Shown here: piece by piece, positions 9,831-10,806 of the stretch
How the letters are laid out: every line of letters starts with the position of its first letter
Position numbering within the stretch: the stretch's first letter is position 1
Virus record (IMG/VR): IMGVR_UViG_2698536401_000015
Length of the DNA: 36,609 nucleotides
Strand: one strand, 5' to 3'
Source: a virus
Taxonomy: Duplodnaviria; Heunggongvirae; Uroviricota; Caudoviricetes
Notes under the pieces: model-generated
The model's database searches: none
Told to the model about the DNA's origin: nothing
The model's input: only the letters and a program-made list of their open reading frames with translations
Made by a program: the position numbers and the translations under genes

Positions 9831-10483
9831 TGAGTAATAAATATTGCCAGGAGCTGGTGGAGCTGCGGAACAAACCAGCCCATGAACTGAAGGAAGTGGG
9901 CGATCAGTGGCGCACGCCGGATAACATTTTCTGGGGAATTAACACCCTGTTTGGCCCGTTTGTCCTGGATCTGTTTACTGACGGTGATAACGCCAAATGT
10001 ACCGCGTATTACACGGCGGAAGACAACGCGCTGGCGCATGACTGGTCAGAACGTCTTGCGGAGCTTAAAGGTGCTGCCTTTGGTAATCCCCCATACAGCC
10101 GCGCCAGTCAGCATGAGGGGCAATACATCACCGGCATGCGTTACATCATGAAACATGCCAGTGCCATGCGTGATAAAGGCGGGCGCTATGTTTTCCTGAT
10201 CAAAGCTGCCACCAGCGAAGTGTGGTGGCCGGAAGATGCAGATCATATTGCTTTTATTCGCGGGCGTATTGGTTTTGAACTGCCTGCCTGGTTTATCCCG
10301 AAGGATGAGAAGCAGGTGCCGACAGGCGCTTTCTTCGCTGGTGCTATTGCTGTTTTTGACAAGACCTGGAAGGGACCGGCAATCAGCTACATCGGGCGCG
10401 ATGAACTTGAGGCATGTGGTGAGGCCTTTCTGGCGCAGGTTCGCCAGCAGGCGGAAAAACTGGTCAGGGAGATGGCGGCATGA
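9830..10483 (+). CDS. phage DNA N6-adenine methyltransferase (Dam-like)
   Basis: Contains the NPPY catalytic motif (GNPPYSR); start overlaps the upstream stop (TAATG). Confidence 0.8.
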   Translation: MSNKYCQELVELRNKPAHELKEVGDQWRTPDNIFWGINTLFGPFVLDLFTDGDNAKCTAYYTAEDNALAHDWSERLAELKGAAFGNPPYSRASQHEGQYITGMRYIMKHASAMRDKGGRYVFLIKAATSEVWWPEDADHIAFIRGRIGFELPAWFIPKDEKQVPTGAFFAGAIAVFDKTWKGPAISYIGRDELEACGEAFLAQVRQQAEKLVREMAA

Positions 10484-10806
10484 CGACATTAACTCAATGC
10501 CAGCAGCAGGTGCTGGATATGTTGATTTCTTATCAGAAAGAACGTGGCTTCCCGCCAACCAATCAGGAGGTGGCAACCATGCTGGGATACCGTTCAGTGA
10601 ATGCAGCGGTAGAGCATCTTCGCGCACTGGAGAAAAAAGGCGTCATCACGATAAAGCGTGGCGTGGCCCGGGGGATAACGCTTCATACCGCGGTGAAGGA
10701 CGACGACAGCGAGGCGGTCGGGATTATCCGCGCACTGCTTGCCGGTGAGGAAAACGCAAGGCTGCGTGCAACCCACTGGTTACATGAGAGAGGCCTGAAA
10801 GTATGA
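10480..10806 (+). CDS. LexA N-terminal DNA-binding-domain-like protein lacking the peptidase domain (108 aa)
   Basis: Aligns by eye to the LexA DNA-binding domain (LexA: [54 protein letters not shown]; here: TQCQQQVLDMLISYQKERGFPPTNQEVATMLGYRSVNAAVEHLRALEKKGVITI); no S24 domain follows. Confidence 0.6.
   Translation: MTTLTQCQQQVLDMLISYQKERGFPPTNQEVATMLGYRSVNAAVEHLRALEKKGVITIKRGVARGITLHTAVKDDDSEAVGIIRALLAGEENARLRATHWLHERGLKV

What the first reader, a model, noticed from the sequence alone, without database searches (positions are those of the whole stretch)
10480..10806. LexA DNA-binding-domain-only protein in a Dam methylase-RusA operon
The 108-aa product aligns by eye with the N-terminal DNA-binding domain of LexA but has no S24 autopeptidase domain, so it could occupy SOS boxes as a non-cleavable LexA mimic and modulate host SOS or prophage induction. 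It is translationally coupled to a phage Dam methylase upstream and RusA downstream.
Basis: partly seen in the sequence, partly recalled or inferred. Interest (0 to 1): 0.5.

Follow-up and report, generated by a model that had tools for sequence, protein, structure and literature searches.

The report
Phage LexA-DNA-binding-domain-only protein beside RusA

Summary
The ORF at 10480-10806 (+), 108 aa, matches Pfam LexA_DNA_bind over its full length (E 2.9e-19). It is 43% identical to E. coli LexA residues 1-86, and its AlphaFold model superposes on the LexA-DNA crystal structure at 0.7 Å. There is no S24 peptidase domain. ATGA overlaps couple it to Dam upstream and RusA downstream.

It is not a new discovery. 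The gene sits in 41% of complete E. coli genomes, in SfV, SfII, mEp460 and Stx2 phages, and in PHROG 362, annotated as "LexA DNA binding domain protein". I found no functional study. The closest characterised precedent is GIL01 gp6, a truncated LexA homologue that activates a late promoter.

Added here:
- A conserved C-terminal two-helix hairpin, probably for dimerisation.
- Four of the five LexA base-contact residues are kept (E44 is V).
- The 36.6-kb window has no SOS box, so any LexA-type targets lie outside it, most plausibly in the host chromosome.
- Dam linkage is not conserved, but RusA/DUF968 linkage is.
- In Kluyvera and Klebsiella prophages the wHTH is fused in frame to RusA.

The SOS-mimic reading is plausible but unproven (about 0.4). 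The rivals are a phage-specific regulator and a RusA-associated DNA-binding factor.

The parts
10480..10806 (+). Gene for the 108-aa LexA-DBD-only protein (called LexN here); orthologue of SfV orf42, SfII_44 and mEp460_046; PHROG 362
   Evidence: ORF. PF01726 E 2.9e-19 and PHROG 362 E 1.2e-59 over the full length. Annotated 'LexA DNA binding domain protein' in SfII and mEp460.
10480..10686 (+). Residues 1-69: LexA-type winged helix-turn-helix (H6-22, H28-35, recognition helix H40-52, wing strands 56-58 and 66-68)
   Evidence: AlphaFold model. Foldseek hit to 3jso_B at rmsd 0.7 Å over 67 residues, 51% identity. Recognition helix RSVNAAVEHLRAL versus [13 protein letters not shown] in LexA.
10687..10698 (+). 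Residues 70-73: flexible linker
   Evidence: pLDDT below 50 for residues 71-73.
10699..10788 (+). Residues 74-103: conserved two-helix hairpin (H74-88, H93-103), inferred dimerisation module
   Evidence: pLDDT about 88-90. Motif EAxxiiRALLxxxxxArxRAxxWL is conserved down to about 40% identity, with A97 and L101 invariant. The dimerisation role is an inference.
10466..10471 (+). AGGGAG Shine-Dalgarno-like motif 8 nt upstream of the ATG, inside the Dam coding end
   Evidence: Read directly from the sequence.
10480..10483 (+). ATGA overlap: LexN start codon and Dam stop codon (translational coupling)
10803..10806 (+). ATGA overlap: RusA start codon and LexN stop codon (translational coupling)
9830..10483 (+). 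Phage Dam N6-adenine methyltransferase. The longest ORF starts at GTG 9797; ATG 9830 matches the SfII annotation. This upstream neighbour is variable across the family.
   Evidence: PF05869 E 1.4e-45. SfII_43 is 654 bp. Upstream neighbour variability.
10803..11192 (+). RusA Holliday-junction resolvase: the conserved downstream partner, fused to the wHTH in Kluyvera/Klebsiella prophages
   Evidence: PF05866 E 6e-15. Synteny. Fusions.
12011..13006 (+). DUF968/HNH-like nuclease gene, found downstream of LexN in every locus that extends far enough
   Evidence: PF06147 E 9e-81. Synteny.
6493..7167 (-). Prophage cI-type repressor with an S24 peptidase domain. This is context: it is the phage's own SOS sensor and is separate from LexN.
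   Evidence: PF00717 E 1.5e-26. Position equivalent to SfII cI.

Best explanation
LexN is an early-right-operon gene of an SfV/SfII-like lambdoid prophage. It lies between the replication genes and Q. Its product is a small sequence-specific DNA-binding protein made of a LexA-type winged HTH, a short flexible linker and a conserved two-helix hairpin.

Shown: domain identity, fold, absence of the S24 protease, coupling to its neighbours, and conservation of the hairpin.

Inferred:
1. The hairpin dimerises the protein, taking over the role of LexA's C-terminal domain.
2. Because S39, N41, A42 and E45 of the LexA recognition helix are kept, the dimer recognises LexA-type CTGT half-sites.
3. The phage has no such sites, so the targets are host SOS operators and possibly LexA-controlled genes of co-resident prophages or colicin plasmids.
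4. Lacking the cleavage domain and the ClpX-recognised ...VAA end of the natural LexA fragment, it persists when host LexA has been destroyed. It would then re-impose or maintain repression of the SOS regulon while the phage replicates, recombines and packages its DNA.

Its constant pairing with RusA/DUF968 suggests it belongs to the phage's DNA-recombination module. One speculative possibility, based on my recollection of the RusA literature and not verified here, is that it holds down SOS-induced host junction-processing functions such as RuvAB.
For: - Domain and fold.
- No S24 domain.
- Four of five LexA base-contact residues retained. Residue list from PMC3091678; alignments. Most divergent lineages keep S-x-N-A-A-x-E-H.
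- The isolated LexA NTD retains SOS-box binding and repression and must be removed by ClpXP (PMC10584840).
- The NTDs form an extensive interface with each other on the operator (PMC3159453).
- Hairpin conserved to about 40% identity, with high pLDDT.
- In a clade where the hairpin is lost, the wHTH is fused to RusA, itself a dimer (PMC1636454). This fits a need for a dimerisation module.
- The hairpin is retained in phages lacking an adjacent RusA (L018), so it is not merely a RusA-binding peptide.
- No SOS-like site in the 36.6-kb window, so targets must lie elsewhere.
- Position in the rightward early operon, with no + strand promoter-like site between 5891 and 11192 and only weak (3-GC-pair) + strand terminator-like hits, all upstream of 7400 in the cI-cro region.
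- Anti-SOS functions have precedent in mobile elements: GIL01 gp7 and Listeria phage AriS (PMC9043618, abstract). A DinI gene lies two genes upstream of a LexN homologue in a Klebsiella phage.
- Strong purifying maintenance: 2233 of 5426 complete E. coli genomes carry it, nearly all at 95% identity or more.
Against: - No binding data exist, and I found no functional paper.
- E44, listed as a DNA-contacting residue, is never acidic in this family. P40 is V here.
- In several divergent lineages E45 and A42 are replaced (Citrobacter NTI(T/A)G, P0172 NAVLL, L009 NTVFI, L018 NSATA). That is unexpected if every member targeted the invariant enterobacterial SOS box.
- The only characterised truncated phage LexA homologue, GIL01 gp6, evolved a different operator and is an activator.
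- Dimerisation by the hairpin is inferred only. No multimer prediction was possible.
- The RusA fusion could instead mean a direct role with RusA.
Confidence: 0.4

Rival explanations
1. Phage-specific transcription factor, like GIL01 gp6. On this reading the LexA-derived wHTH has drifted to a phage operator of different sequence and regulates a phage promoter as activator or repressor, with no effect on the SOS regulon.
For: - Precedent: gp6 is a truncated LexA homologue, 44% identical to its host's LexA DBD. It binds GaCACAnnTGTGaC and activates the late promoter P3.
- The recognition helix differs from LexA at positions 40 and 44 in all family members and at 42 and 45 in some. This resembles specificity drift.
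- PHROG 362 is labelled 'transcriptional repressor'.
Against: - No CTGT/ACAG-type palindrome at any spacing from 0 to 20 is enriched in the window, and no candidate operator was found.
- The phage already has cI, cro, cII and Q for its regulatory circuit.
- The gene has no intergenic region of its own that could support autoregulation.
- An operator of unknown sequence could not be searched for, so this rival is not excluded.
Confidence: 0.25
2. DNA-binding accessory of the recombination nucleases. On this reading LexN works physically with RusA and/or the DUF968 HNH-like nuclease, tethering or targeting the resolvase to DNA or modulating it. Transcription control would not be its main role.
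For: - LexN is followed by RusA in almost every enterobacterial locus examined, usually with overlapping stop and start codons. The upstream neighbour, by contrast, varies: Dam, C5-methylase, MT-A70, O or PerC.
- DUF968 is always downstream. It abuts LexN directly where RusA is absent (L012, L018, L019, L090).
- At least 24 protein clusters (90% identity level; 73-97% identical to the Kluyvera query) from Kluyvera and Klebsiella are in-frame wHTH-linker-RusA fusions. They carry both Pfam domains.
Against: - RusA is a self-sufficient dimeric resolvase that works without partners (PMC1636454).
- The list of RusA homologues is dominated by RusA-only proteins, though their neighbouring genes were not examined.
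- The hairpin persists where RusA is not adjacent.
- AlphaFold of the fusion gives two domains joined by a disordered linker (residues 71-78, pLDDT below 50; pTM 0.50). No confident wHTH-RusA interface appears.
- Retention of LexA's base-specific contact residues is not needed for mere tethering.
- Conserved gene order in lambdoid nin regions can reflect modular inheritance rather than interaction.
Confidence: 0.2
3. Decoy or substrate for the cleavage machinery. Residues 85-90 (LLAGEE) align with the LexA cleavage region VAAGEP. The protein might therefore be cleaved in trans, or might titrate RecA*/LexA-CTD.
For: HMMER and BLAST extend the LexA alignment to residue 90, placing A88-G89 opposite A84-G85.
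Against: - The AGE motif is not conserved in divergent family members, which show VERES, LTRKE, IDDQP, LACSV and MADTP at that position.
- It lies inside a confidently predicted helix (H74-88) rather than a cleavable loop or strand.
- From my own recollection, not checked here, RecA* engages the LexA C-terminal domain, which is absent from this protein.
Confidence: 0.03
4. Non-functional remnant of a captured lexA gene.
For: It looks like a truncated LexA.
Against: - Intact ORFs of constant length are conserved from 99% down to about 40% identity across Enterobacterales phages.
- The family has a conserved extra C-terminal module.
- It is present in 41% of complete E. coli genomes, almost all at 95% identity or more.
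- It is translationally coupled within an operon.
Confidence: 0.02

Closest known systems
E. coli LexA N-terminal domain (PDB 1lea; 3jso in complex with DNA) and the LexA(1-84) cleavage fragment
   Same: Same winged-HTH fold (0.7 Å rmsd) and 43-51% identity. Recognition-helix residues S39, N41, A42 and E45 and wing residues R64 and G65 are conserved. Like the cleavage fragment, it lacks the S24 domain. That fragment is reported to retain SOS-box binding and repression (PMC10584840).
   Different: E44 is V and P40 is V. It has no catalytic or dimerisation CTD. Instead it carries a conserved 30-residue helical hairpin. It ends in ...GLKV rather than the ClpX-recognised ...VAA (ClpX recognition recalled from the literature, not tested). 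It is encoded by a phage in an early lytic operon and is not autoregulated through SOS boxes.
GIL01 gp6, a truncated LexA homologue of a Bacillus thuringiensis tectivirus (Fornelos et al. 2018, PMC6182141)
   Same: Phage-encoded, LexA DBD only, about 44% identical to the host LexA DBD, made from an early operon after induction.
   Different: gp6 has no C-terminal hairpin. It binds its own palindrome, GaCACAnnTGTGaC, at the late promoter and activates transcription. Here late genes are under Q, no phage operator was found, the recognition helix stays closer to host LexA, and the gene is tied to RusA/DUF968.
PHROG 362 / NCBI 'LexA family transcriptional regulator' / SfV orf42, SfII_44, mEp460_046
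   Same: This is the same gene family. The profile match is full length (E 1.2e-59) and identity to these phage genes is 97-99%.
   Different: Nothing differs. These are annotation labels only, and I found no experimental characterisation.
BlaI/MecI-type repressors (wHTH plus a C-terminal helical dimerisation domain)
   Same: The overall architecture is similar: an N-terminal winged helix followed by a small helical C-terminal module. Weak Foldseek hits to 1okr, 1xsd, 2d45 and 2g9w at E 0.02-0.1.
   Different: There is no significant sequence relationship, and the rmsd is high (8-10 Å) over the full length. The resemblance is architectural only.
Other mobile-element anti-SOS factors (GIL01 gp7, Listeria phage AriS, phage DinI homologues)
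   Same: The proposed outcome is the same: a mobile element damps or reshapes the host SOS response.
   Different: Those factors act by other means, for example gp7 by strengthening host LexA binding. LexN would replace LexA on the DNA. None of them is homologous to LexN.

Membership tests
Pfam PF01726 LexA_DNA_bind | Profile HMM score above the gathering threshold over the whole domain | tested here: met
   69 bits against a cut-off of 23.7, E 2.9e-19, profile positions 1-65 of 65.
Pfam PF01726 LexA_DNA_bind | Three-helix winged-HTH fold superposable on the LexA NTD | tested here: met
   AlphaFold model with pLDDT about 85 across the domain. 3jso_B at rmsd 0.7 Å over 67 residues and 1lea at 0.9 Å over 68 residues.
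SOS-box-binding LexA (functional LexA specificity, gammaproteobacterial type) | Base-contacting residues S39, N41, A42, E44 and E45 of helix 3 (PMC3091678) | tested here: inconclusive
   S39, N41, A42 and E45 are present; E44 is V and P40 is V. The effect of V44 on specificity is unknown.
SOS-box-binding LexA (functional LexA specificity, gammaproteobacterial type) | Binds CTGT-N8-ACAG operators | not testable with these tools
   This needs EMSA, SELEX or ChIP. The window has no such site: PWM maximum 10.1 against 12.7-26.8 for real boxes.
LexA repressor proper (S24 family, RecA*-inducible self-cleavage) | C-terminal Peptidase_S24 domain with a Ser/Lys catalytic dyad | tested here: not met
   No PF00717 hit. 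The protein ends at residue 108 and the next ORF is RusA.
LexA repressor proper (S24 family, RecA*-inducible self-cleavage) | Conserved Ala-Gly cleavage site in an accessible loop | tested here: not met
   A88-G89 aligns with A84-G85. However, it lies in predicted helix H74-88 and is not conserved in the family.
GIL01 gp6-type truncated LexA homologue (late-gene activator) | LexA DBD only, phage-encoded, no S24 domain | tested here: met
GIL01 gp6-type truncated LexA homologue (late-gene activator) | Own palindromic operator overlapping the -35 element of a phage late promoter; activates transcription | tested here: inconclusive
   No enriched CTGT/ACAG palindrome at any spacing. Late genes here have a Q antiterminator. 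An operator of unknown sequence could not be searched for.
PHROG 362 | Full-length profile match | tested here: met
   E 1.2e-59, residues 1-108 against profile positions 1-106 of 106.
wHTH-RusA fusion proteins (Kluyvera/Klebsiella prophages) | LexA_DNA_bind and RusA in a single polypeptide | tested here: not met
   In the window they are two ORFs overlapping by ATGA. The fusion exists only in relatives.

The most novel reading that the evidence does not exclude
The LexA-derived wHTH might be a dedicated DNA-binding subunit of a phage recombination-nuclease module (RusA and/or the DUF968 HNH-like nuclease). It would be non-covalently associated in SfV-like phages and covalently fused in Kluyvera/Klebsiella phages. 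It would direct or restrain Holliday-junction resolution at particular DNA sequences, possibly SOS-box-like ones. This would be the first sequence-targeted RusA system and a new use of the LexA domain outside transcription.
Probability: 0.15. Interest if true: 0.7.

Novelty: new member of a known kind. Interest (0 to 1): 0.4.

Why it matters
A stable, non-cleavable LexA surrogate made during lytic growth would let a very common class of E. coli and Shigella prophages re-silence the SOS regulon after their own induction. That class includes Stx2a-, Stx2c- and Stx2k-converting phages, cdt-converting phages and serotype-converting phages. Re-silencing would affect several things:
- co-induction of competing prophages that rely on LexA-controlled antirepressors;
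- colicin release;
- SOS mutagenesis;
- possibly Shiga-toxin output in polylysogens.

The gene is in about 41% of complete E. coli genomes, so even a modest effect would be widespread. The RusA fusion and linkage also give a testable lead on how phage resolvases are coordinated with the host DNA-damage response.

As it stands, the feature is an already-annotated family with a characterised analogue (GIL01 gp6). The finding is a sensible hypothesis about an understudied gene rather than a new kind of system.

Tried and rejected
1. SOS boxes in the prophage.
- No exact CTGT-N8-ACAG sites. With one mismatch there are 18 hits against 12.2±3.2 expected.
- I built a 20-bp PWM from 19 E. coli operators recalled from memory. 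Its best score in the window was 10.1, below every real box and below the mean shuffle maximum.
- CTGT/ACAG inverted or everted repeats at spacings 0-20 showed no enrichment.
- An autoregulatory or phage-borne LexA-type operator is therefore rejected.

2. LLAGE as a relic cleavage site. Rejected because it is not conserved and lies in a predicted helix.

3. Dam as the functional partner. Rejected as the conserved link, because the upstream gene varies between Dam, C5-MTase, MT-A70, O and PerC.

4. Hairpin as a RusA-binding peptide only. Weakened, because the hairpin is retained where RusA is not adjacent.

5. AlphaFold of the natural wHTH-RusA fusion, looking for a fixed interface. The result was two domains joined by a disordered linker with pTM 0.50, which is uninformative. 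No homodimer or heterocomplex prediction was possible with the tool.

6. Literature. Nine full-text searches found no functional study of this protein. The Zhang et al. 2010 LexA-DNA paper was not held, so the contact residues are cited second-hand from PMC3091678.

7. The search for related loci with the 15-sequence alignment failed because it had no conserved stretch. It was rerun with 6 sequences.

8. My jackhmmer-based RusA detection missed the divergent RusA genes in L007 and L009, which Pfam does annotate (versus 61). The synteny counts combine both sources.
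Full report
**1. The observation**

The window carries an ORF from ATG 10480 to TGA 10806 on the + strand, encoding 108 aa. Its start codon overlaps the stop codon of the upstream ORF as ATGA (10480-10483). Its stop codon overlaps the start codon of the downstream ORF in the same way (10803-10806). An AGGGAG motif lies 8 nt upstream of the ATG.

The upstream ORF is a phage Dam methyltransferase (PF05869, E 1.4e-45). The downstream ORF is RusA (PF05866, E 6e-15).

The 108-aa product matches Pfam LexA_DNA_bind end to end: E 2.9e-19, 69 bits against a cut-off of 23.7, profile positions 1-65 of 65. No Peptidase_S24 domain was found. BLASTP against E. coli LexA gives 43% identity over residues 1-90 versus 1-86, E 1e-21. 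The best PDB sequence matches are LexA entries 1lea, 3jso and 1jhh, at E about 1e-15 to 1e-16.

An AlphaFold model built on a 69-sequence alignment has mean pLDDT 81.8 and the LexA winged-HTH topology. It superposes on the LexA-DNA complex 3jso_B at 0.7 Å over 67 residues with 51% identity.

**2. Context**

The window is an SfV/SfII-like lambdoid prophage next to an aldehyde-dehydrogenase-family host gene (proA by inference). The gene order is:
- integrase (1459-2622, −)
- an S24-type cI repressor (6493-7167, −)
- cII (7490-8053)
- an O-like replication protein (8398-9339)
- PerC (9336-9830)
- Dam, LexN, RusA
- a KilA-N protein (11212-12009)
- a DUF968/HNH-like protein (12011-13006)
- Q (13021-13386)
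- lysis and morphogenesis genes

The segment 9300-13100 is 96-98% identical to phages Kati, SfII and Stx2a/Stx2c-converting phages.

A consensus scan of 5800-14000 finds no + strand promoter-like site between 5891 and 11192. The + strand terminator-like hits are weak (3 G-C pairs) and lie upstream of 7400, in the cI-cro region. LexN is thus one cistron in a chain of overlapping genes of the rightward early operon. By analogy with lambdoid phages, this implies expression during lytic development and early infection rather than in the stable lysogen. That step is an inference.

**3. How well known the gene is**

The gene is very common and already annotated:
- It is present in 2233 of 5426 complete E. 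coli genomes, nearly all at 95% identity or more, as 'LexA family transcriptional regulator'.
- In phage records it is SfV orf42 ('unknown'), SfII_44 and mEp460_046 ('LexA DNA binding domain protein'). In cdtI, Stx2a, Stx2c and Stx2k phages it is labelled 'LexA-like protein' or 'repressor, lexA family'.
- It matches PHROG 362 ('transcriptional repressor') over its full length, E 1.2e-59.
- Short LexA-DBD-only proteins are also widespread among predicted viral structures, including mycobacteriophage Wildcat, tectiviruses and uncultured Caudovirales.

Nine full-text searches found no functional study of this enterobacterial family.

The closest characterised precedent is GIL01 gp6. It is a truncated LexA homologue, 44% identical to its host's LexA DBD. 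It binds its own palindrome (GaCACAnnTGTGaC) and activates the late promoter P3 (PMC6182141).

**4.

The protein is not a bare DBD. After the wing (residues 56-68) comes a low-confidence linker (residues 69-73). Then comes a confidently predicted two-helix hairpin, H74-88 and H93-103, with pLDDT about 88-90.

The hairpin is conserved in family members down to about 40% identity. Its motif is EAxxiiRALLxxxxxArxRAxxWL, with A97 and L101 invariant. I infer that it is a dimerisation module replacing LexA's C-terminal domain. The wHTH-plus-helical-tail architecture resembles BlaI/MecI only loosely.

HMMER and BLAST extend the LexA alignment to residue 90, which puts A88-G89 opposite the LexA A84-G85 scissile bond. 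This motif lies inside the predicted helix and is not conserved in divergent members. I therefore do not regard it as a cleavage site.

**5. DNA specificity**

The LexA residues reported to contact DNA are S39, N41, A42, E44 and E45 (PMC3091678). LexN has S39, N41, A42, V44 and E45, with V40 in place of P40. Wing residues R64 and G65 are invariant.

Across the short family, position 44 is never acidic (V, A, F, T, L). Most lineages keep S-x-N-A-A-x-E-H. Several replace A42 and/or E45: Citrobacter NTI(T/A)G, P0172/L012 (N/K)AVLL, L009 NTVFI, L018 NSATA, and D45 in the fusion clade.

LexA-like half-site recognition is therefore plausible for the E. coli clade but is not a family-wide certainty.

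Two points from the literature make binding by a CTD-less LexA domain credible:
- The LexA NTD released by cleavage still binds SOS boxes and represses, and has to be removed by ClpXP (PMC10584840).
- On the operator, the two NTDs form an extensive interface with each other (PMC3159453).

**6. Where the targets could be**

The window contains no exact CTGT-N8-ACAG. One-mismatch hits number 18 against 12.2±3.2 expected.

I built a 20-bp PWM from 19 E. coli SOS operators written from my own memory. Its best score in the window is 10.1. The operators themselves score 12.7-26.8, and the best score in shuffled sequences averages 11.1.

CTGT/ACAG repeats at spacings 0-20 show no enrichment.

If LexN has LexA-like specificity, its targets must therefore lie outside this 36.6-kb window, most plausibly in the host chromosome. 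The prophage's own induction is governed by a self-cleaving S24 cI, not by an SOS box.

**7. Synteny and fusions**

I examined the contexts of divergent homologues at 40-68% identity, from Enterobacter, Kosakonia, Citrobacter, Klebsiella, Silvania, Kluyvera and metagenomes.

The upstream neighbour varies. It can be Dam, Dam plus a C5-methylase, an MT-A70 methylase, the O-like replication gene, PerC or small ORFs.

Downstream, RusA follows LexN in almost all loci, usually with overlapping stop and start codons. DUF968 and then an antiterminator follow RusA. In the loci without an adjacent RusA (Klebsiella phage L012, Kosakonia L018, Enterobacter L019, Edwardsiella phage L090), LexN abuts or nearly abuts the DUF968 gene.

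In Kluyvera and Klebsiella prophages the wHTH (residues 1 to about 68) is fused in frame to a complete RusA through a linker of about 12 residues, and the hairpin has been lost. At least 24 protein clusters at the 90% level show this, and one NCBI record is named 'RusA family...'. They are 73-97% identical to the Kluyvera query and carry both Pfam domains. An E. coli one-off, P0331, is a deletion that joins LexN to a truncated RusA.

At the fusion junction a GGAGGG motif precedes the internal RusA ATG, so free RusA may also be made.

AlphaFold of the fusion gives two folded domains joined by a disordered linker (residues 71-78, pLDDT below 50; pTM 0.50). No confident interface appears.

RusA is a self-sufficient dimeric resolvase (PMC1636454). 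The fusion can be read in two ways. Either RusA supplies the dimerisation that the hairpin normally provides, or LexN and RusA work together physically.

**8. Mechanism I consider most likely (confidence about 0.4)**

I think LexN is a hairpin-dimerised, RecA*-insensitive LexA surrogate made from the early lytic operon. It would occupy LexA-type operators in the host, and in co-resident LexA-controlled elements, once host LexA has been cleaved or when phage replication would otherwise trigger SOS. That would damp or reset the SOS regulon while the phage's RusA/DUF968 module processes recombination and replication intermediates.

Shown: domain, fold, absence of the protease, coupling, hairpin conservation, absence of phage SOS boxes, and synteny with fusion.

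Inferred: dimerisation, operator specificity, timing of expression, and physiological benefit.

Anti-SOS functions in mobile elements have precedent: GIL01 gp7, Listeria phage AriS (PMC9043618), and a DinI gene two genes upstream of a LexN homologue in a Klebsiella phage.

Rival explanations:
- A gp6-like phage-specific regulator, about 0.25.
- A DNA-binding accessory of RusA/DUF968, about 0.2.
- A cleavage decoy, at most 0.03.
- A dead remnant, at most 0.03.

**9. Novelty and score**

However, it is an already-annotated, very common phage gene family, and it has a characterised analogue in another phage group. I therefore rate it a new (uncharacterised) member of a known kind.

What is new here is the conserved hairpin, the demonstration that the prophage has no SOS box, the replacement of the 'Dam' link by a RusA/DUF968 link, and the natural wHTH-RusA fusions.

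I score interest at 0.4. It is a good, testable hypothesis that may bear on prophage competition and Stx-phage biology, but it would not greatly surprise a specialist.

Noticed in passing
L016:5001-5627 and L017:5001-5639 (Kluyvera); proteins P0253-P0276: Natural in-frame fusions of the LexA wHTH to a full-length RusA resolvase via a linker of about 12 aa. The fusion is conserved across at least 24 protein clusters at the 90% level. A GGAGGG Shine-Dalgarno motif sits before the internal RusA ATG, so both the fusion and free RusA may be made.
   Followed up: partly
Proteins P0132 (222 aa), P0148 (352 aa), P0151, P0153 and others: Proteins with two tandem LexA_DNA_bind domains and no S24 domain, apparently single-chain 'dimers' of the LexA wHTH. 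Their organisms and contexts were not examined.
   Followed up: no
window 13591-14586 (−) and 15012-15845 (−): A ClpP-like SDH-type serine protease homologue (PF01972) is encoded antisense between Q and the lysis genes. An IS3-family transposase (rve domains) lies next to it.
   Followed up: no
window 9797-10483: The longest Dam ORF starts at GTG 9797, inside the PerC gene. The SfII annotation and the chain of overlapping genes favour ATG 9830 (218 aa). PHROG-derived annotations in several phage records call this Dam 'phosphoadenosine phosphosulfate reductase', which is probably label carry-over from fused proteins (phrog_33262).
   Followed up: partly
L012:1-969 (Klebsiella phage ST846-OXA48phi9.1): A DinI homologue (RecA co-protease inhibitor) lies two genes upstream of the LexN homologue. 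In that phage the LexN homologue is followed by a 67-aa ORF and DUF968, with no RusA.
   Followed up: no
L090:2495-2710 (Edwardsiella phage EPP-1): A 71-aa LexA_DNA_bind-only ORF without a hairpin directly abuts a DUF968 gene. RusA is two genes upstream and a Rha-domain protein lies between them.
   Followed up: partly
L023 ('Actinomadura', 534 bp) and L025 ('Fredinandcohnia', 326 bp): Tiny contigs in non-enterobacterial assemblies carry enterobacterial-phage LexN sequence (LexN-RusA in L023; 100% identity over residues 1-37 in L025). These are probably contamination.
   Followed up: no
window 13426-13441: CTGTTTTTTATGACTG is the most SOS-box-like string in the window: an AT-rich spacer with one mismatch that disrupts the CAG. 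It lies just downstream of Q. It scores below threshold and was not pursued.
   Followed up: no
Proteins P0025, P0092 and P0098: Predicted proteins combine Dam (PF05869) and LexA_DNA_bind in 179-185 aa. They are probably frameshift or deletion fusions across the ATGA overlap in some E. coli assemblies.
   Followed up: no
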